Of a DNA stretch of 64,000 nt, positions 4,741-57,942 are shown one piece after another. Where the stretch lies: NCBI GenBank assembly GCA_964016885.1, contig OZ024741.1, positions 370,450,001 to 370,514,000 of the forward strand, in the 5' to 3' direction. Positions within the stretch are counted from its first letter, which is position 1. Each line of letters opens with the position of its first letter. The notes under the pieces are model-generated. The model had not been told where the DNA came from, searched no databases, and worked only from the letters and a program-made list of their open reading frames with translations. The position numbers and the translations under genes were made by a program. Origin of the DNA: Eledone cirrhosa. Its lineage: Eukaryota.

Positions 4741-4866
4741 TTCTTCTAATGAAGGACTATCGTCCGAAACATTAAGACCCTCTTCCTGCTATTTCAAGTG
4801 TTAACTTAATATATTCCTTCCATATACTGTACCGATTATGTTGTTATTTCTGTTTACCTTTTACAT
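4741..4866 (+). mobile_element. PLE pLTR 3' end with degenerate minimal hammerhead
   Basis: ctaatga-a-ggac(tatc)gtcc-gaaa-cat-ta-aga. The downstream sequence ...gttatttctgtttaccttttaca recurs at 44915-45016 (-) and 36515-36542. Confidence 0.6.
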
Positions 4867-4872
4867 ACATGC

Positions 4873-11597: not shown

Positions 11598-11860
11598 CAT
11601 CAGTGATCTACTAGCCATCATAAGTTATTAAAGAGAGACAGGTAAACAAACACGAATGGTGAGGCAACGTAAAGGGGTTGCCTCACCATTCGTGTTTGTT
11701 TACCTGTCTCTCTTTCTCCACCCAATTCTTTTTATCCCAATAACTTATTTAGTTATTGTTCGCGCTAGCCTGAGGTATCTGGTCTTTAATGCGAAGAAAT
11801 ACCTATGATGGCTAGTAGATCACTGACGATGGATAGTCCTATTTCTAATTCTTCATTGTA

Positions 11861-28195: not shown

Positions 28196-31140
28196 AATTA
28201 ATAAAAACAATGAATAAAAACAAAGAACAAGTTCCTTATATTAGAAAATTCATCATTTTACGATCGTTTCTAGGATATATATGTGTGTTGGTATGTATAT
28301 CATATAGATCTATGTAAAAATATTACAAACTATCAGAGGAAATTTACATAACCTTCACATATATATGCTGTCTTCAGAAATGATGAGATTTGTTTATTGA
28401 AAAACAACAAAGATTTAATATAATAGGTCTGTTTGGGAACAGGTTTTGAATTGACCAATAGAAAAGTAGTAAGAGGTCAAGTTGATAGAATAGTAGTAGT
28501 AGAAATTTAATTTAGGAGTAGAGGAGTGCCGACTTATGTTTTGAATGGAAAGAATACTTTGAATGAAAAGAATACTTTGGGGATGAAAAGAGGTCAAGCC
28601 GGTGAAGGGTACACGAAAATTTGATGTTATTAAAGAATAATGTTAAAAACGAAGGAAAGTAAAATTTTAGACAAACACTACTGGAATTTCAGAAGGAATA
28701 CTGGACCAGAAATACATATAGTAATCTATTCGACATTAATATGGGCTCTAGTGATTCTGCCCAAATTACCGATCTTGGGAGCCTCTTTCTTCTATTTAAC
28801 ATAGATTCTTCTTTTCCCCACCTTAAAGGTGGTTTATATCGTGATGACTGTCTTCTTCTTTCCACTAATCTTAGCCTATCAGAAATTGAAATAAAAAAAA
28901 AACTTATTAGAACTTTCCTCAAAGACTATTACAATCTCACTATTACATTTGAAAAGACCAGTAAAATAGTTAATTTCCTAGATATAACTTTAGACTTATC
29001 TACGGGTATCTACCAACCTTACCATAAACCTAACCAAAACTTACATTACATACACTCACAATCCAATCACCCTAGATCTATCCTTAAAAACCTAGCATAT
29101 AATATCTCACTCAGAATCTCTAACCTTTCATCTAACCAGGATGTATTCGATAAAAACGCGCCCTTTTATAACGAAGCTTTAGCTAGAAGCGGCTACAAAA
29201 ACAAATTAGTCTATATACCTTGCACAAATAATACTTCAAACATACAACCCAATATTACTAACAAACACCAAATGAAAAACACACACCTAAATGCCACTCA
29301 CACTACATCCAAAAATACCAACCTAAAACTTAATTTCTCTACCTCTTCTCACATAAAATATAGTGACTTTCAAAAAACCATTCATCCTAATACTCCAATA
29401 TACGTTAATAACATTACTAACAAAATTCCTAAAAATCAGACTAAAACACCTAAATCAGTTAATCTAACTAAACCTATATATAATACATTCACTAATAGTA
29501 ACTCTCTGATACATCGTATAAATATAAAAAAACAATATCGAAACCGTAATAGACGAGTTACTTGGTATAATGCTCAATATAATCTACAAATTAAAGATAA
29601 TATCCCTAAAAAATTGTTTGCTATCCTAGAGAAAAACTTCCCGCCAAACCATAAATACCATCAAATTTTAAATAGATCAACTGTCAAATTTTCTTACTCC
29701 AATACCAAAAATATACAACAAAATATAAGTACGTACAACGCATATAAATGTAAAAAAAACACGAATATACCACCAACACATCAAACCAACCATAATACTA
29801 AAATAAACCGCAACAAACCACCATCTCCTTCACATATAACAAGTCGAGTAAATTCCACACCAAATTTGACTAACTCCCTTGCTATAATATTCACGAATGG
29901 TTGTAACTGTAGAAACAAAAGAAATTGCCCATTAAAGGGAAATTGTCTTATTAATAACATAGTCTATAAATGTAAAATTAGCACTAAGGACTCCACTTAT
30001 TCATATATAGGAGCTACGTCTAAACAATTTAAAGTAAGATTTAATACCCACAAACATAGTTTTAAAAATGCTGCATTAGCTAATACAACATCCTTGGCTG
30101 AAACAATTAATAATTATAGAAAAAAGAATATCGATTACAACCTGACCTGGAGTGTGCTCAAAAGGGCCACCTCTTATCAAAATAACAGATATGAGTGTAG
30201 ATTATGCTCCCAGGAACTTTTTGAAATAATGAAATCTAAGGATATCCTATTAAATAAGCAACAAGAATTAATTATATCTTGCAATCATAGAATTAGAAGA
30301 ACCTTCAAATATTATAAACCTAATTAATATACACTTTGCACTTATATTTTACATATTATTATAATTAGTTTTTTAAATTTAGTTCACCTATAATTAGTAC
30401 TTTACTACAGAGAACTTCATAATTTTATTTCCCTCTTACAGCTCTCTTTTCCTAAAATTAATACCTAAAAGTATACATATAAATTAATTTAATTTCCTGT
30501 TATGAATCTAGATTCCTTGTAGTTTATATAAGATTGGTATTTCTCACTACTACCCTTATCCCAAAATTTTATTTTCCTTCGTTTTTAACAACATTCTTTA
30601 ATAACATCTAATTCTTATTTATCACATCCATATGAATTAATATAAATTTATCCCTATAAGTATACCTATCAATTAATTTAATTTCTTGTTATAGATCTAG
30701 ATTCCTTGTGGTTTAAATAAGATTGGTATTTCTCACTAATACCCTTACCCTAAAATGTTACTTTCCTTCGTTTTTAACATTATTCTTTAATAACATAAAA
30801 TTTTCGTGTAACCTTCACCGGCTTGACCTCTTTTCATCCCCAAAGTATTCTTTTCATTCAAAGTATTCTTTCCATTCAAAACATAAATCTGCACTCCTCT
30901 ACGAAGGTATGTATATTTCCTCTGATAGTTTGTAATATTTTGACATCGCTCTATATGATATACATACCAACACACATATATATCCTAGAAACGATCGTAA
31001 AATGATGAATTTTCTAATATAAGGAAGTTGTTCTTTGTTTTTATTCATTGTTTATATTACTTTATCTTGACTCTGTTTTCCTATGATTTTCCTAGAAAAT
31101 TTTTTAATGCATCTTCTCTTTTCATGATATTTGGATTACA
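28196..31140 (+). mobile_element. 5'-truncated Penelope-like (Naiad-like) element with inverted pLTR
   Basis: 28205-28356 and 28520-28660 are inverted copies of 30760-31055; ORF lies between them; (TA)n at the left end. Confidence 0.9.
28741..30327 (+). CDS. PLE RT (C-terminal part) plus GIY-YIG endonuclease, 5'-truncated (frame open from about 28670)
   Basis: MGSSDSAQ, GLYRDD, VNFLDITLDL, SNHP, CNCRNKRNCPLKGNCL, IVYKC..YIG, CRLC..E, SCNHR. Confidence 0.92.
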   Translation: MGSSDSAQITDLGSLFLLFNIDSSFPHLKGGLYRDDCLLLSTNLSLSEIEIKKKLIRTFLKDYYNLTITFEKTSKIVNFLDITLDLSTGIYQPYHKPNQNLHYIHSQSNHPRSILKNLAYNISLRISNLSSNQDVFDKNAPFYNEALARSGYKNKLVYIPCTNNTSNIQPNITNKHQMKNTHLNATHTTSKNTNLKLNFSTSSHIKYSDFQKTIHPNTPIYVNNITNKIPKNQTKTPKSVNLTKPIYNTFTNSNSLIHRINIKKQYRNRNRRVTWYNAQYNLQIKDNIPKKLFAILEKNFPPNHKYHQILNRSTVKFSYSNTKNIQQNISTYNAYKCKKNTNIPPTHQTNHNTKINRNKPPSPSHITSRVNSTPNLTNSLAIIFTNGCNCRNKRNCPLKGNCLINNIVYKCKISTKDSTYSYIGATSKQFKVRFNTHKHSFKNAALANTTSLAETINNYRKKNIDYNLTWSVLKRATSYQNNRYECRLCSQELFEIMKSKDILLNKQQELIISCNHRIRRTFKYYKPN

Positions 31141-44792: not shown

Positions 44793-44917
<125 letters not shown>

Positions 44918-45070
44918 AAAAGGTAAACAGAAATAACAACACAATCGGTACAGTATATGGAAGGGATATATTAGGTTAACGCTTGATATAGCAGGAAGAG
45001 GGTCTTAACGTTTCGCACTAAGCTTAAAAATGGAATGAGAATAAGAAGAAACCAAGAACGTGAAGGGGAG

Positions 45071-45173
45071 TTTCCCTCATCAGTTGTCTACTGGCGGTCT
45101 TGGATATTTCAACGCTTTAAAGACAATATATCTTCCCCCAAGGCGTTCAATAACTGGGTAAGTTATTGGGAAA
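45071..45173 (-). ncRNA. Candidate non-circularly permuted hammerhead, copy Z
   Basis: tttcc-caataact(taccc)agttattg-aacgc-c-ttggggg-aa-gatat-A-ttgtct-ttaaa-gcgtt-GAA-atatc-caaga-ccgccag-t-agacaa-CTGATGA-g-ggaaa. Confidence 0.75.
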
Positions 45174-45997
45174 ACGGAGGAGGGGAGGGAAGGAAAATAG
45201 AAGGGAAAAGGGAAAACGGGAAGAAAAGAGAAAAACAGCGGAATAAACAACAAACCGAAGAATGTGCGAGCAACTTAAGGTAAGAAAATCCAAGTCCAAA
45301 TTTTATATCATATATTCGTTATAAACCGTCAGGTATTTATAAAACCTGTTTTTTCCTTATATCGCTCCACCGTTATTTCTGATTTCTCTTTCCGTTGTAT
45401 CGACTGATTTCTCGCATGTTCTTCAATACATTTAGCAAAGTATGTACACCAATTGGTTTTGTCACTTGATTTTATGAGAAAATAATTCATTTAAAATTTT
45501 GTTTATTGACATCAAAATTGCGACATCCTTGTCCGATAAAATATCCAGTTGTTGTTTTTTTTTAATATTTTTTCAGGCCGTTGGGTTCTGGTACTCAAAA
45601 TACTAGACACTTATATTTCCAACCCCTCACATATTTACATACTCCCTTCCCTTGTTAGATTGGGTGCGTCATTACACAAACACATGCAGGTATAGCTCTA
45701 TTTATTTTACTAATCATTTTCATCATTATTCCATATGCGTTAACGAAAGCTTCAGATGTAAAGTAATATATATATATATAAATATCTTTAAGTCGTTTGG
45801 AAGCCTCGACAATGCAAATGGGTAAATCTCCGGGTAACAAGATCCGGTGGTGGAGAGAGAGATGTAAGTGGGTGTACGTTGAGATGCGTGGTGTGTATAA
45901 GATGTGTAAGATGTGTAGAAGAATGAAGGGAAGAGTATAAAGGATAAAATAAAAATAACAACACAAGAGAGAGTTACCTTGGGAGAGATTTAATAGT

Positions 45998-48989: not shown

Positions 48990-49029
48990 CCGAGAACAAT
49001 TGTTTCACCTTGGCGGATCTTCAGCTCGG
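48990..49029 (-). ncRNA. Minimal type I hammerhead (mirror copy 49655-49694, +)
   Basis: ccgag-CTGAAGA-t-cc(gccaa)gg-t-GAAA-caattg-TT-ctcgg. Confidence 0.85.
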
Positions 49030-49196
49030 AATGGGCATGGTTATAGGAACAGGAAGGACAACCGTACGAACGCGCATGCGCAGAAACCCGGTCACTTCAC
49101 ACAGGCAATACTAGACTGCGTGCGAGAAGATAACTGCGAAAGTCCGAAAAGTTTTTAGGTTGAAAATAAAATTACAAAGAATCAGTCCGGAGCCTT

Positions 49197-49486
49197 TTAG
49201 TTATGCAATAGGTGTTTGGCGACGTGTAGACAACGTGTGAAAAATTCACTTCTCGTGTTTAGGCAATCACTATTGCATAATCTCTTTAGAATAGTTATTC
49301 GTTCGTCAATACATAAGCCACACGTCGGATTTCCCCTTGCGTATGGCTTGGACCTAGTGATGGCTTTCCATTGAATGGAGTAGTCTATACGTGAGCCGTT
49401 GAGGGACCATACGTGGCTCGCGAGTCTCGTGGATGAACGTCTGACCGGGTATCTGAAGGTAGACTGGTGGTTCAGGAAATGTTCCA
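49197..49486 (-). pseudogene. PLE GIY-YIG C-terminal fragment in the inverted arm
   Basis: NHQSTF..STRLASHVWSL..IQW..CGLCIDE..LNTRSEFFTRCLH. Confidence 0.88.
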
Positions 49487-49947
49487 GACTGATTCTTTGT
49501 AATTTTATTTTCAACCTAAAAACTTTTCGGACTTTCGCAGTTATCTCCCTTACACCTCTCGCACGCAGTCTAGTATTGCCTGTGTGAAGTGACCGGGTTT
49601 CTGCGCATGCGCGTTCGTACGGTTGTCCTTTCTGTTCCTATAACCATGCCCATTCCAAGCTGAAGATCCGCTAAGGTGAAACAATTGTTCTCGGTATGAT
49701 GAACTAACTGTTGTGTAACCACTTCTACCTAACTCGTCCCTTGGACTGAGTGCTCTACCACTACGGATATTACCTTCCAGTGTTCCACCACTATTTACGT
49801 CTCCAGCACCGGTCAGCAGATTCTATTCACTACGTAGAAGTTTGGCTTTTAGCAGATTCTTCACCGCGTGCGAGTTTGGCTTACTACCCTGAGAGCGCTC
49901 TATATATCCTCGTGTCCTACACAATTTTGCGTCTCATCAACGTCAGT

Positions 49948-51460
49948 ATGGATTTATACGAACTGGATTACTCCCTGAAGAACATTCCATCCCCCTCCAA
50001 CCATGTTTACCAAAAGCTCCTCCTACAAAAAGCGGAAGATGTCGTCAGACGCTTAAGATGGCGAGCCCTACCTTTCGACGGCAAAATTACAGGCACCAAC
50101 AACACCTTCAACCTGAAATCGAGAGCCTACCCTCCTAAGGTAACTGAACTTGCTCCTTTCGAGACGGACCTTCTTGACTTAGTCGCTAACATTTCCTTTC
50201 GCAAACACACTAACATCTTTCAAACGAAACTCAGAAACGATATTAAGACATTTAGGTCTTCTAATAACACCTCCGTCCTTTCCGACAAACTAATAATATT
50301 TACGAAGTCAACAACACCACTTTCCGCCACCTGGCCCATTACGCTATTACTTCTAAATATAAGAAAGCTAACCCTATGGCCTACCACGACATTAATACAG
50401 AAGCCAAGGAACTTGCCACCGACCTTCAGGTAGATAAGAAGCTACAATCTCTAGCTAAGCGAGAGGCGTTCCTCACCCTGAAAGATCACAAGGTAGACTT
50501 TACTTCTAACCCCACATGTAGACTAATAAACCCGGCACGCACAGCTATGGGACTAGTCAGCAAGGCCATACTTAGAAACATAGTTAAGACCATTAGGATC
50601 AAGTCCAACCTGCGCCAGTGGGAGAACAGCGACTCCGTAATTAAGTGGTTTAACTCCTTAAAATACAAAAAAGCGAAGTTCACACAGTTTGACATTGTCG
50701 ATTTTTACCCGTCGATCTCAGAGACCCTGTTAAACAAAGCGTTTGACTTCGCTACCACTTATACCACCGTCGATGGTTTAGACAGGGAAATCATCGCTGA
50801 CTGCCATAAAACCCTCCTCTTCAACGACGGAGTAGCCTTGGCAAAGAAGTCTACATCTTCAGACCTGTTCGACGTCTCCATGGGATCGTTTGACAGTGCT
50901 GACGTATGTGACTTGCTTGGCCTTTTTATCATAGACATATTACATGTTAGATTCCCGGACTTCCACACGGGAATATACTGTGACGATGGACTGACTTTAT
51001 CGAGCCATAAAAGTGTCACGACCTCGACCGGTTTAAAAAAGACTTAGCTTCTACCTTCAATGAGTTAGGTCTTAGGATAACAGTAGCCACCAACCTCTCT
51101 AGCGTAGATTTCTTAGACATTAATTTAGACCTTCGCACACACACCCAAAGACCCTTCCATAAGCTAAACGAGAAACTTAATTACATTCACAAGGACTCAT
51201 GCCACCCTCCCACTGTTTTTAGAAACTTCGTTAAGAATATCAGTACTAGAATCACAAACCTCTCCTCTAATAAGGCTATCTTTAACAGGGCGGCACCCTA
51301 CTATAACACGGCGTTGGCTAACAGCGGCTTCTCACAACCTATCACTTACTTTCCCACTAGCAACAACACCATTAAGAAAAGTAAGCGCAACAATAGACAA
51401 ACTATCTGGTTCTCTCCTCCCTTCTCACTCAACGTTAAAACCAATTTAGGAAAAAAATGA
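49948..51460 (+). pseudogene. PLE reverse transcriptase ORF with two frameshifts
   Basis: YSLKNIP, LKDHK..CRLINP, FDIVDFYPSI, MGSFDSA, IYCDDGL, VDFLDINLDL, SCHPP, WFSPPFS; frameshifts at about 50290 and 51005. Confidence 0.92.
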
Positions 51461-51689
51461 TATATATAGTAGGTAGGTGTGCAATGATAGTTACAAGTGG
51501 TACGCTAGTCAGAGCAGTCAATGTAGTTCCATAGTCCGTCATACTTCCGTGTAGCTAAGGGTTATGGGCAGCTGTGACGTGCACGGTGTAAATAAAATTG
51601 ACCAAGAACAAAGTCTCAAGGTGGTATCATATTCAAACTTTATTCACCTATGACAATACATTCCATATCGATCACCGCAAGGTGCGATC

Positions 51690-54563: not shown

Positions 54564-54668
54564 TATCCGTCATCAGTTGTCTACTAGCCATCATATGTAT
54601 TTCTTCGCATTACAGACCATATACCTCTGGCTAGGGCGATACAATAACTAAAATAAGTTATTGGGATA
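54564..54668 (-). ncRNA. Candidate non-circularly permuted hammerhead, copy Y
   Basis: tatcc-caataact..agttattg-ta-tcgc-c-ctagcc-ag-aggtat-A-tggtct-gtaat-gcga-a-GAA-atacat-atgat-ggctag-t-agacaa-CTGATGA-c-ggata. Confidence 0.72.
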
Positions 54669-55414
54669 AAAAGAGTTGGGTGGAGAAAGAGAGACATGTA
54701 AACAAACACGAATGGTGAGGCAACGTAAAGAGAGGAAAAAACTCTTCATTTATTATACTTAAATGCAACAACACAGCTCGCCATTTTTCATTCATATATG
54801 CTTTCCCCTTCGCTGTGACCTGTCTTTTTCTCTTCCTTTGCTGCTATCCTCTTTCTCTCTCCCCCTTCTCTCTCCTTCTCCCTCTTACTTTCACTCAGGC
54901 CCTCTGCTAGTCCCCCTCTCTCGGCTAGCCTCTTCCTCACACTTTCACTCACTCACTCTCTGCTACTCACCCTCTCTCTCACTTCCTCCATCGTCCCACA
55001 CCGTACGAGATTCTTTTCCTTGCTCACATCCGCACGGCCAAGATGTGTCTTTACCTTCTCGTTAATATTCGCACGTTCTTATGTTCGAAATGAATTATTG
55101 ACTTGATTTACTCATTTATATATATTTATATATTCAATACATAAACAGAGAAAGCCTTAAGCGATACTCCGACCAACTGCATCTCACTCAACAAACATTA
55201 GAATATACCTAAGTATTATCCCAATTTAGTGTTTTGGGTGCTAACTAATCAGTATTTCGTGGATAGCTGGTTGTATTATTTTATATGAGACATTATTAAA
55301 TAAATATCTCTTTCCTTCCAGACGGCCGTTCCGTTATAAGATTTCTACAATTTGGGATAAATAATTTCCAGGTTATGTAGAAACTTGTATATAATCCATA
55401 TATATATATATAAT

Positions 55415-55491
<77 letters not shown>

Positions 55492-57942
55492 TTGATCACC
55501 TATAGATCGGGGGAACACACAAGCCAGGTAGATTATATCCTTACCAGAAGACGTGACAGAGTGTCTGTTGTTAACACTAAATCCCTCCCCCATGAAGAAT
55601 TCACCTCCCAACATAGACTGATAATTAGCGACCTCATAGTCAGGACGAGACGTACTAGACAGCGGAAGAGGACTATCCTCAGGAGAAAAATATGGAAGCT
55701 AAAGGACCCCATAGCCAGAAATAAATTTCAAAGCATATTACTTGACGCTTTCGACAGTAAGGAAGAGCAATTAGAGTCGTATAATATAGAGGAACAGTGG
55801 GAATTCCTGAGAGCAAACCTGCTGACGGCGGCAGACGAAGTCTGTGGCTGGAGCAGGCCTATAGGTAGGAGGAGAGTAACATGGTGGTGGAACAGTAAGG
55901 TGGAGGAGTCAATTAAGGCCAAAAAGCAGGCTTGGAAAGCATGGCGGGATGGGGGAAGTAGAGAAGACTATCAAGTGGCCAGGAGGGAAGCTAGGAGACA
56001 AGTGTACTTCGCAAGAAGGGAAGCAGAGGAAAGAAAGTTCAAGCATGTTCTACAACGTGAGGACCAAAAACGTGAGGTGTTCAGGATTGCCAGGCAATGT
56101 GTCAAGGAAAACCGTGATATTGTCGGGGAGAAGTGTGTACTTAACGATGATGGCATACTTGCCATCACCGACGCTGATAAGAAGGTAGCTTGGAAGTGTC
56201 ACTACGAAAGGCTTCTAAATGAGGAGAACAAATGGGAGAAAGACAGTCTCCCCCACATCGACCCAATAGAGGGACCAGCAGTGTTAGTCCAGGGTAGTAC
56301 AATAAGCAAGGCAATCAAAGATATGAAGACGGGTAAGGCGGCTGGTCCTTCGGAAATAGTTGCTGAGATGCTGAAGGCATCTGGTTCGGTGGGACACACC
56401 ATGGTCACCCGGATAGTTAACCAAGTCGTACAGAATGGGGTTGTTCCGAAGGACTGGCGTAGCAGCATCATCGTTAACTGCTATAAGGGAAAAGGAGATG
56501 CCCTAGATAGGAGTAACTATAGAGGCATTAAATTAATCGACCAGGTCATGAAGGTCACGGAAAAAGTAATAGCGCAACTAATCAGAGAGAGAATTGATCT
56601 AGATGAAATGCAGTTCGGATTTGTGTCAGGCAAAAGTACCACAGACGCTCTTTTCATCGTACGACAACTACAGGAGAAGTACCTAGCTAAAAGTAAACCC
56701 CTATACTTAGCTTTCGTCGACTTGGAGAAAGCCTTCGACAGAGTCCCCCGTTCCATTATCTGGTGGTCTCTTAGAAAACTAGGTGTTGACGAATGGCTTG
56801 TGAGAGCTATACAAGCCATGTATAAAGAAACAGTCAGTAAGGTTAGAATTAACAACGAATATAGTGAAGAGTTTAGCGTAAAAGTTGGTGTCCATCAGGG
56901 CTCTGTTCTTAGCCCCCTACTATTTATTATTGCCCTTCAGGCTATAACAGAGGAGTTCAAGACCGGCTGCCCATGGGAACTCCTATACGCAGATGATCTA
57001 ACGCTCATAGCTGAATCAATGACCGAACTAGAGAAGAAATTCCAAACATGGAAGCACGGCCTAGAATCAAAAGGCCTTAAAATTAACCTGGCTAAGACTA
57101 AAGTTCTAGTTTGTAGGAAAGAAAATAAGGCGGCAGTCCCATCTGGGAAATGGCCATGCTCAGTGTGTAGGAAAGGCGTAGGTAGAAACTCCATTTTATG
57201 TCCCAAATGCAAAGTATGGGTGCATAAAAGATGTAGTGGGATCACAGGTAAGCTAACTAAGAACATAGATTTTACATGTGGCCGGTGCTCTGGTGCAATA
57301 AGTAGCAGCAAGTGCCCACAAAATACTAGCTCCTTCAACTGCGCAGAGGGTTCTATAGAAATAGTGGACAGCTTCCGTTACCTGGGTGACAAAATCAGCA
57401 GTGGGGGAGGGTGCTCTGAAAGTACAGTAGCTAGAGTCAGAACTGGATGGAAAAAGTTCAGAGAGCTTATACCACTATTAGCCGCTAGAGGGTTCTCCCT
57501 AAAAATGAAAGGCAGGTTATACGATGCCTGCATACGAACAGCAATGCTGCATGGCAGTGAGACCTGGGCATTGTGTGCAGAGGATATACGCAGACTAGAG
57601 AGGAACGAAGCTTGCATGCTCCGCTGGATGTGCAATAGTAATATACGTGAACGGCAAAGCATAAACGAACTAAGGAAAAAATTAGAAATAAGAGGGATCA
57701 GATGTTGTTTACTAGAGAGAAGGCTACGTTGGTACGGTCACGTGATGCGCATGAAAGACGACAGCTGTATAACAAAGTGCAGGGCAATAAAGATAGACGG
57801 TAGCCACGGAGTAGGCAGACCCAGAAAAACATGGGACGAGCTGATAAATTCCGACTTCACACGCTTACACCTCTCCAAGACAATGTCACTGGACCGAGAC
57901 CTTTGGCGGTACTCAGTAATAGAGAAGACCCGCCTTACCTAA
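55492..57942 (+). CDS. RTE-clade LINE ORF, 5'-truncated: end of AP endonuclease, RT, PHD-like finger
   Basis: SQVDYIL/SQHRL, NYRGIKL, QFGF, FVDLEKAFD, GVHQGSVLSP, YADD, CSVC..CPKC..H..C..CGRC, RLRWYGH, GRPRKTW; uninterrupted 816 codons. Confidence 0.95.
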   Translation: MITYRSGEHTSQVDYILTRRRDRVSVVNTKSLPHEEFTSQHRLIISDLIVRTRRTRQRKRTILRRKIWKLKDPIARNKFQSILLDAFDSKEEQLESYNIEEQWEFLRANLLTAADEVCGWSRPIGRRRVTWWWNSKVEESIKAKKQAWKAWRDGGSREDYQVARREARRQVYFARREAEERKFKHVLQREDQKREVFRIARQCVKENRDIVGEKCVLNDDGILAITDADKKVAWKCHYERLLNEENKWEKDSLPHIDPIEGPAVLVQGSTISKAIKDMKTGKAAGPSEIVAEMLKASGSVGHTMVTRIVNQVVQNGVVPKDWRSSIIVNCYKGKGDALDRSNYRGIKLIDQVMKVTEKVIAQLIRERIDLDEMQFGFVSGKSTTDALFIVRQLQEKYLAKSKPLYLAFVDLEKAFDRVPRSIIWWSLRKLGVDEWLVRAIQAMYKETVSKVRINNEYSEEFSVKVGVHQGSVLSPLLFIIALQAITEEFKTGCPWELLYADDLTLIAESMTELEKKFQTWKHGLESKGLKINLAKTKVLVCRKENKAAVPSGKWPCSVCRKGVGRNSILCPKCKVWVHKRCSGITGKLTKNIDFTCGRCSGAISSSKCPQNTSSFNCAEGSIEIVDSFRYLGDKISSGGGCSESTVARVRTGWKKFRELIPLLAARGFSLKMKGRLYDACIRTAMLHGSETWALCAEDIRRLERNEACMLRWMCNSNIRERQSINELRKKLEIRGIRCCLLERRLRWYGHVMRMKDDSCITKCRAIKIDGSHGVGRPRKTWDELINSDFTRLHLSKTMSLDRDLWRYSVIEKTRLT

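What the first reader, a model, noticed from the sequence alone, without database searches (positions are those of the whole stretch)
45071..45173. Diverged second-family copy of the permuted ribozyme, upstream of a canonical HHR remnant
Seen: the flanks are unrelated to the 11.7 kb and 54.6 kb copies, yet every helix is retained with different sequence. On the same strand about 55 nt downstream lies cgaaacgttaagaccc (45000-45016), the 3' half of the minimal HHR family seen at 4746. Inference: the motif is shared by at least two pLTR families and was maintained by selection on structure rather than by recent copying.
Basis: partly seen in the sequence, partly recalled or inferred. Interest (0 to 1): 0.75.

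Follow-up and report, generated by a model that had tools for sequence, protein, structure and literature searches.

The report
Rewired hammerhead in Naiad-derived repeats
This stretch is one copy of a short jumping repeat that carries a predicted self-cutting hammerhead RNA with its parts in scrambled order and one helix replaced by a four-way junction, a fold that can also be read at the ends of Naiad retroelements described as lacking normal hammerheads; cutting is untested.

Summary
Confirmed. 45173-45071 (minus strand) holds a full hammerhead core in the non-circular order site-GAAA-CUGAUGA (type SGC). Its two stem II strands do not pair with each other: each pairs with an upstream bridge strand around a hairpin, giving a predicted four-way junction, and stem III carries a k-turn consensus. 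In this copy 34 of 35 predicted pairs form. It belongs to repeat family C (units of about 565 nt, no ORF), distinct from the 11.7 and 54.6 kb families: motif 71-73% identical, adjacent upstream flank 49-50% (chance). The unit bodies are still distantly homologous, so the families share an ancestor. Across 17 representatives, 20 of 34 pairs show two-sided changes. The core pattern has 16,823 genomic hits against 24 for the control. By eye, the same fold ends seven published Naiad consensus sequences. The downstream remnant is real but is an unrelated type I hammerhead element lying next to it (1 of 35 family C ends). No autonomous partner, RNA data or cleavage test was obtained. The scan had already noted this fold on other DNA of this genome.

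The parts
45019..45298 (-). 5'-truncated copy (about half a unit) of repeat family C; its 3' end is the family's usual short end
   Evidence: unit length 563-570 nt from 4 partial tandems
45169..45173 (-). Bridge strand Y', pairs with the strand after CUGAUGA
45148..45168 (-). Hairpin H (7 bp), one arm of the predicted four-way junction
45143..45146 (-). Bridge strand X', pairs with the strand before GAAA (pseudoknot helix)
   Evidence: 97% of cells paired, 2 of 4 pairs with two-sided change; also in the single-copy fold
45128..45141 (-). 5' strand of stem III: distal helix, non-bulged k-turn strand, proximal helix ending in U16.1
45126..45127 (-). Predicted cleavage site, AUA then cut between 45127 and 45126
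   Evidence: analogy with the hammerhead core; H17 is never G in 176 copies; cleavage untested
45121..45126 (-). Stem I, strand 3' of the cut
   Evidence: 99% of cells paired, 5 of 6 pairs with two-sided change
45111..45120 (-). 5-nt linker, strand X and position 11.1
45107..45110 (-). GAAA core block (G12-A15.1)
45091..45106 (-). 3' strand of stem III with 3-nt bulge plus GA (k-turn consensus); one private mismatch at 45095
45084..45089 (-). Stem I, strand before CUGAUGA
45077..45083 (-). CUGAUGA core block (C3-A9)
45071..45076 (-). Position 10.1 and strand Y
44911..45018 (-). 5'-truncated remnant of unrelated family D (minimal type I hammerhead element); lacks CUGAUGA, so it cannot form a ribozyme on its own
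11733..11835 (+). Sister copy A of the same motif (different family)
54564..54668 (-). Sister copy B of the same motif (family B)
4747..4778 (+). Family D minimal type I hammerhead, with a core substitution in this copy

Best explanation
This is a truncated copy of a short non-coding repeat family whose unit carries a hammerhead core in the scrambled order site-GAAA-CUGAUGA, predicted to fold with a four-way junction in place of stem II and a k-turn in stem III, and likely to cut the RNA once per unit. SHOWN: the sequence, family membership, the helices by covariation, the k-turn consensus, tandem units, ends at TA repeats, no ORF. INFERRED: transcripts through tandem units are cut at AUA; because stem III is long and intramolecular, one ribozyme would work as a monomer, without the dimer that minimal Penelope hammerheads need. 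Unit-length RNAs, probably circularised, would be copied by a Penelope-type reverse transcriptase and endonuclease in trans, primed about 58 nt or about 100 nt 3' of the core at TA-repeat targets and running around the unit to give partial tandems. The ribozyme and the units likely descend from the 3' end of a Naiad element. The family D remnant is a neighbouring insertion with no role.
For: Covariation on 17 representatives: 93.9% of 577 cells pair, 20 of 34 pairs change on both sides, 0 of 500 shuffles reach this, slid controls pair 29-51%. RNAalifold independently finds the nested helices Y, H and III. Within family B, stem I position 2 is G-C in 19 and U-A in 16 of 47 copies. H17 is A, C or U and never G in 176 copies. 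K-turn positions: 1n A 171 of 176, 1b G 168 of 176, 2b A 172 of 176, 2n G 134 or U 38. Pattern count 16,823 versus 24. Units of 497-637 nt in tandem, longest Met-ORF 23-77 aa in 5 families. Naiad link: in the supplement of PMC8557442, read by eye, the full bridged fold ends Naiad_Amil, Aacu, Anas, Plae, EuTe, Obim and Ovul. The Octopus ones share the hairpin loop and the k-turn loop with these families, and an older family in this genome is closer still to them around stem III. In this genome, decayed Naiad reverse transcriptase relics are followed by a site-GAAA-core motif, some with the U3/A8 core swap. A relic fragment's only longer homologue has N-terminal GIY-YIG followed by RT, the Naiad layout. 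About 9 of 37 short-truncated copies start within a few bases of the predicted cut (p about 0.01, hand-curated, window chosen afterwards).
Against: No cleavage assay. The canonical G10.1-C11.1 pair is missing: positions 10.1/11.1 pair in only 11 of 17 representatives, and family B has C.A. The Y strand is variable in family C: 17 of 33 copies carry the majority form, and several others keep only 3 pairs. The single-copy minimum-energy fold prefers a rival hairpin over stems I and III and is not unusually stable (z -1.5); pseudoknots cannot be scored by that program. 5' ends next to TA runs show no peak at the cut: 1 of 20 at the site, 17 downstream, 2 upstream, and 171 of 209 copies run through the site (partly biased by how loci were picked). 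All Naiad coding relics found here are old and broken (only 150 of 3218 candidates scored in 57), so the enzyme that moved the young families is unidentified. The shuffle control ignores relatedness. The Naiad readings are by eye, not computed.
Confidence: 0.75

Rival explanations
1. The fold is real but no longer cuts: it is a hammerhead-derived handle that the reverse transcriptase or a host k-turn-binding protein recognises, kept for mobilisation.
For: Stem II reduced to 0-1 pair; conserved k-turn; most copies run through the site; no sharp peak of 5' ends.
Against: Catalytic core letters invariant across 17 representatives; H17 never G; U3/A8 swap in an older Naiad family keeps the tertiary pair that catalysis needs (significance of that swap is recalled, not from a call); modest cluster of 5' ends at the site.
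Confidence: 0.13
2. It cuts only with help: a protein bound at the k-turn or a second copy in trans supplies the fold, so the naked monomer is nearly inactive.
For: Several crossing helices and a competing hairpin in this copy; minimal Penelope hammerheads are weak in vitro (PMC4209133, passages).
Against: All pairing partners lie within 103 nt and covary in cis; other type-SGC ribozymes cleave alone (PMC10085705, parts 3-5).
Confidence: 0.08
3. The motif and the downstream type I remnant are parts of one composite element with two ribozymes.
For: Same strand, 55 nt apart; one other family C locus has a shorter family D end nearby.
Against: Family C stops here at its usual end, as in 13 of 35 copies, and only 1 of 35 is followed directly by family D. 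Family D bodies do not align with 5 families (z up to 2.2). 1 of 15 family D loci has a family C motif within 1.5 kb. The remnant lacks CUGAUGA.
Confidence: 0.02
4. One family under uniform neutral decay, with chance compensations.
For: Unit bodies are homologous between families.
Against: Within-family identity 93-95% versus 64% between family majorities; 6 two-sided pair-keeping changes between majorities; motif more conserved than flanks.
Confidence: 0.02

Closest known systems
Type-SGC hammerhead ribozymes (HRIMA-1 and SGC variants; Eckert et al. 2023, PMC10085705; I read parts 3-5 of 8 and passages)
   Same: Block order site-GAAA-CUGAnGA, crossing stems I and III, short linker from stem I to the strand before GAAA, full core.
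   Different: There stem II is a direct helix plus an extra I-II helix, and examples came from metatranscriptomes. Here the two stem II strands pair with an upstream bridge around a hairpin (0-1 direct pair), stem III has a k-turn consensus, and the host is an animal genomic repeat.
Naiad Penelope-like elements (Craig et al. 2021, PMC8557442; passages and supplement searches)
   Same: TA-repeat targets, partial tandems, inverted partner copies, a 30-40 nt tail; the same bridged fold by eye in 7 consensus 3' ends, several of which the authors marked HHR_core or HHR_half_core or left unmarked.
   Different: Families C and B have no ORF and no linked Naiad ORF was found. The paper reports no canonical hammerhead in Naiads. 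Six nematode Naiads show the CSG order with a direct stem II instead.
Non-LTR retrozymes (bioRxiv 10.64898/2026.07.22.740005, first part and passages read)
   Same: Short non-coding tandem units, one hammerhead each, proposed as non-autonomous derivatives of Penelope-like elements.
   Different: Defined there by type I hammerheads; this unit has a non-circularly permuted one that type I descriptors would miss.
[quoted passage not shown]
   Same: Family D, including the remnant at 45018-44911, fits this class: short palindromic stem III, 4-bp stems I and II.
   Different: The finding itself has a long intramolecular stem III and no normal stem II.
Pseudoknot-containing hammerhead (Zhan et al. 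2024, PMC11300833, abstract and three passages)
   Same: A hammerhead core set in a pseudoknotted scaffold.
   Different: Described as pistol-like in connectivity; the terms 'permut' and 'four-way' do not occur in its text.

Membership tests
Hammerhead ribozyme | CUGAnGA and GAAA core nucleotides | tested here: met
Hammerhead ribozyme | A15.1-U16.1 pair and H17 not G, flanked by stems III and I | tested here: met
Hammerhead ribozyme | Stem II as a direct helix joining CUGAnGA to GAAA (usually G10.1-C11.1) | tested here: not met
   0-1 pair, 11 of 17 representatives; replaced by bridge helices X and Y
Hammerhead ribozyme | Site-specific self-cleavage | not testable with these tools
   only indirect 5'-end data, mixed
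Hammerhead ribozyme | Match to an Rfam hammerhead model | tested here: not met
   0 matches at E up to 10
Type-SGC hammerhead (Eckert 2023) | Block order S-G-C with crossing stems | tested here: met
   definition
Type-SGC hammerhead (Eckert 2023) | Direct stem II plus a stem I-II interaction helix | tested here: not met
   X and Y do not pair with each other; each pairs upstream
Naiad Penelope-like element | ORF with N-terminal GIY-YIG, CxC and RT | tested here: not met
   no ORF in the units; separate decayed Naiad relics exist in the genome
Naiad Penelope-like element | TA-repeat targets, partial tandems, inverted copies, short tail | tested here: met
Naiad Penelope-like element | Sequence homology of the unit to a Naiad 3' end | tested here: inconclusive
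   motif-level likeness by eye to Naiad_Obim and Ovul; no computed alignment; exact Obim-type pattern absent here
Non-LTR retrozyme | Short non-coding tandem unit with one hammerhead per unit | tested here: met
Non-LTR retrozyme | Type I hammerhead | tested here: not met
   order is S-G-C
Non-LTR retrozyme | Circular RNA monomers in cells | not testable with these tools
   no RNA run was available to lay
Kink-turn (definition recalled) | 3-nt bulge followed by G.A and A.G pairs between two helices | tested here: met
   family C has U and this copy A at 2n, non-standard

The most novel reading that the evidence does not exclude
Naiad retrotransposons and their non-coding satellites use an undescribed hammerhead architecture: a non-circularly permuted core that needs no stem II, docked instead on a four-way junction made by an upstream bridge strand and, in this lineage, bent by a k-turn. 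It is active as a monomer, present in well over ten thousand copies in one animal genome and conserved from corals to octopus, which would overturn the view that Naiads lack hammerheads and that the three hammerhead blocks cannot be split.
Probability: 0.6. Interest if true: 0.82.

Novelty: new variant of a known kind. Interest (0 to 1): 0.72.

Why it matters
Non-circular hammerhead permutations were reported from environmental sequence and one doubtful bacterial case (PMC10085705), under the assumption that CUGAnGA, GAAA and their neighbouring helix strands form fixed blocks with a direct stem II. This motif keeps the core but drops stem II, which tests what the hammerhead core really needs. 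It also offers a direct answer to why descriptor searches found no canonical hammerhead in Naiads (PMC8557442), and makes the role of self-cleavage in Penelope-like transposition testable in a clade thought to do without it. This particular copy matters as the divergent family that supplies much of the covariation. Literature searches found no description of the bridged form; that library lacks most subscription journals.

Tried and rejected
Rfam scan of the whole window gave only microsatellite-driven microRNA noise among the 150 of 409 rows shown; the local scan gave 0. The repeat finder was swamped by trinucleotide arrays. A pattern built on the Octopus Naiad ribozyme found 0 hits here. Search for an autonomous partner: two loci with motif copies 2.9 kb apart were a duplication with an antisense endonuclease fragment between them; locus L148 has family-10 copies about 1 kb after a Naiad relic, but with unrelated sequence between; tblastn with three relic fragments found no convincing RT within 1.5 kb upstream of the 30 loci. 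Pfam gave no hit above cut-off for 6 RT fragments. A canonical hammerhead using the motif's CUGAUGA and the remnant's GAAA was rejected: stem I would not pair. Rescue of a canonical order across tandem units was rejected: it would still need X to pair with Y. Fixed-offset parsing misregisters families 20 and 21 in distal stem III, so those cells were not used. Rows dropped: 26 of 209 motif instances lacked the hairpin and were left out of clustering; 7 more (inverted junctions, truncated or false) were left out of the 176-copy counts; one duplicate was dropped for the 37 short-truncated ends.

Full report
1. The observation. On the minus strand, 45173-45071 reads as: bridge strand Y' (TTTCC), a 7-bp hairpin H, bridge strand X' (ACGC), the 5' strand of stem III ending in AUA, stem I strand TTGTCT, a 5-nt linker, strand X (GCGT), one U, GAAA, the 3' strand of stem III, AGACAA, CTGATGA, one G, strand Y (GGAAA). 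The copies at 11733-11835 (+) and 54668-54564 (-) have the same order. In this copy 34 of 35 scored pairs form. Motif identity is 73% to the 54.6 kb copy and 71% to the 11.7 kb copy, while the 130 nt upstream align at chance level. Rfam has no match.

2. The element. A genome search with this region gave 2156 candidates, 40 scored, with the best other copies 86-90% identical over query bases 3-282. The 54.6 kb copy gave 2887 candidates, 40 scored, at 94-97%. A pattern for the linker, GAAA and core has 16,823 exact hits against 24 for the control. Of 209 instances in the loci I fetched, 183 had the hairpin and clustered into 9 families of 3 or more copies plus smaller groups. The window copy is family C (33 copies, 93% to their majority); the 54.6 kb copy is family B (47 copies, 95%); the two majorities match at 64%. 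Longer copies are partial tandems with units of 563-570 nt (C), 553-571 (B) and 497-637 (others), with no Met-ORF above 77 aa in 5 families. Unit bodies are homologous between families (C against B: local z 13.5). Family C 3' ends fall either 58 nt after the core or about 40 nt further, usually into TA repeats. The window copy spans about 45298-45019, half a unit.

3. The structure. The block order is site, GAAA, CUGAUGA: type SGC of Eckert et al. (PMC10085705). Unlike that type, X and Y do not pair with each other. X pairs with X' and Y with Y', and X' and Y' flank hairpin H, so the tandem G.A pairs of the core, Y, H and X would meet in a four-way junction with at most one 10.1-11.1 pair. On 17 representatives chosen near their family majorities or as singletons, 93.9% of 577 cells pair and 20 of 34 pairs change on both sides; no shuffle of 500 reaches this and slid controls pair 29-51%. 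Both crossing helices covary: stem I 5 of 6 pairs, X 2 of 4. The 10.1-11.1 pair forms in 11 of 17, as A-U, G-U or U-A. RNAalifold recovers Y, H and III unaided. Between the C and B majorities, 6 pairs change on both sides and still pair. The internal loop of stem III fits a k-turn, a lead from earlier scan notes that I then counted: 1n A 171, 1b G 168, 2b A 172 of 176; 2n G 134, U 38. H17 is never G in 176 copies. Within the motif this copy differs from its family majority at six positions: one breaks a distal stem III pair, one changes k-turn 2n to A, and one gives a five-pair Y helix. Against: the family C Y strand varies (17 of 33 in the majority form), and the single-copy fold prefers a rival hairpin, z -1.5. 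The shuffle control does not correct for relatedness.

4. The downstream remnant. It is 108 nt, 93% identical to 4762-4869, and belongs to family D, a minimal type I hammerhead element with 4730 candidates and one tandem spacing of 416 nt. Its body does not align with 5 of the other families (z up to 2.2). Family C stops here at its usual end, and only 1 of 35 family C ends is followed directly by family D. The adjacency is best read as two insertions, or one template switch, at a shared TA-rich target.

5. The Naiad link. Craig et al. (PMC8557442, passages) report that Naiads lack canonical hammerheads, that some have core halves 35-50 nt apart, that they target TA repeats, and that in cephalopods they survive as remnants. 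I read their supplement by eye: 55 of 62 CTGATGA hits and the last few hundred bases of 44 consensus sequences. The full bridged fold is present in 7: Naiad_Amil, Aacu, Anas, Plae, EuTe, Obim and Ovul. It is partial or imperfect in 3 (Bfor, Movir-2, Esco). GAAA precedes the core, with the site out of view, in 4 (Smim, Dst-1, Dst-2, Dst-4). Six nematode elements show the CSG order with a direct stem II (Nbra-1, -2, -3, Hcon, Hpol, Asuum). In the rest I saw none in the stretch shown. The coral versions use the same TTAAT linker and have no direct 10.1-11.1 pair; the Octopus versions share the hairpin loop and k-turn loop. These readings were not computed. In this genome, a Naiad RT motif search found one relic, and a fragment of it found 80 matches, mostly with stops; a longer fragment found 154. 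Its only longer database homologue has the Naiad layout. The 3' ends of these relics carry a site-GAAA-core motif, with TTGATAA in 11 and CTGATGA in 2 of 30 pattern-selected loci, 13 unscored; 2 of those 30 have RT within 1.5 kb upstream. Their stem II region is too decayed to read. A relaxed pattern found 137 hits against 5, including two older families closer to the Octopus Naiad around stem III. No intact Naiad ORF was found, and none was linked to families C or B.

6. Indirect signs of cutting. Of 209 copies, 171 run through the whole motif; 38 start within -47 to +32 of the predicted cut. After removing a duplicate and TA-run artefacts by hand, 9 of 37 start within a few bases of it (p about 0.01; window chosen afterwards), including two inversion junctions at the site. 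Against this, among 20 distinct TA-abutting starts in the first 100 of 1504 rows, 1 is at the site, 17 are downstream and 2 upstream. This skew fits templates that begin at the cut but shows no peak. No RNA data were available.

7. Mechanism. Shown: sequence, families, helices, tandem units, TA targets. Inferred: one cut per unit, monomer activity, circular unit-length RNA (needed to explain copies that run through the site and beyond one unit), and copying in trans by a Penelope-type enzyme. The k-turn would bend stem III so that its far end can reach stem I and X' through one-base links; this is geometric inference only.

8. Verdict. The link to the type I remnant and the word pLTR are not supported. 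It works like a type-SGC hammerhead but fails that type's direct stem II feature, so it is a new variant. Searches found no description of it; supplements of PMC10085705 were not read and could hold related variants. Eight earlier notes of this scan describe the same fold elsewhere in this genome; I reached the Naiad link before that call and do not count them as support.

Noticed in passing
window 28663-30327 (+): 554-aa open frame with RT followed by a Cys motif and a GIY-YIG-like end, a C-terminal-endonuclease Penelope-like element; no Pfam hit at E 1.
   Followed up: partly
window about 49000-51500: Broken Penelope-like element on the plus strand with a canonical type I hammerhead at 49660 (+) and an inverted copy at 49024 (-).
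   Followed up: no
window 23481 (+), 54470 (-), 61290 (-): Another CTGATGA family with a long stem II, apparently type I; the 54470 copy lies directly after family B copy.
   Followed up: no
window 11603-11716: Inverted partial copy in front of the 11.7 kb motif, the inverted 5' structure typical of Penelope-like insertions.
   Followed up: partly
window 55414-57942 (+): 842-aa open frame of a non-LTR reverse transcriptase, abundant in fetched loci.
   Followed up: no
L124, L131, L150 and L163-L192: Old Naiad family whose permuted core reads TTGATAA in some copies and CTGATGA in others, a natural swap of the 3-8 pair.
   Followed up: partly
L214 and L219, around position 1500: Older family in which hairpin H seems absent and the bridge joins Y' to X' by two bases, with a G10.1-C11.1 pair; decayed copies, read by eye.
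   Followed up: partly
supplement of PMC8557442, 3' ends of Naiad-1_Movir and several bivalve Naiads: Motifs that resemble twister ribozymes by recall, and a different conserved motif in oyster and hemichordate Naiads; Naiads may swap ribozyme classes. Untested.
   Followed up: no
L075 and L240, around the motif: Inverted-repeat junctions that fall at the predicted cleavage site.
   Followed up: partly
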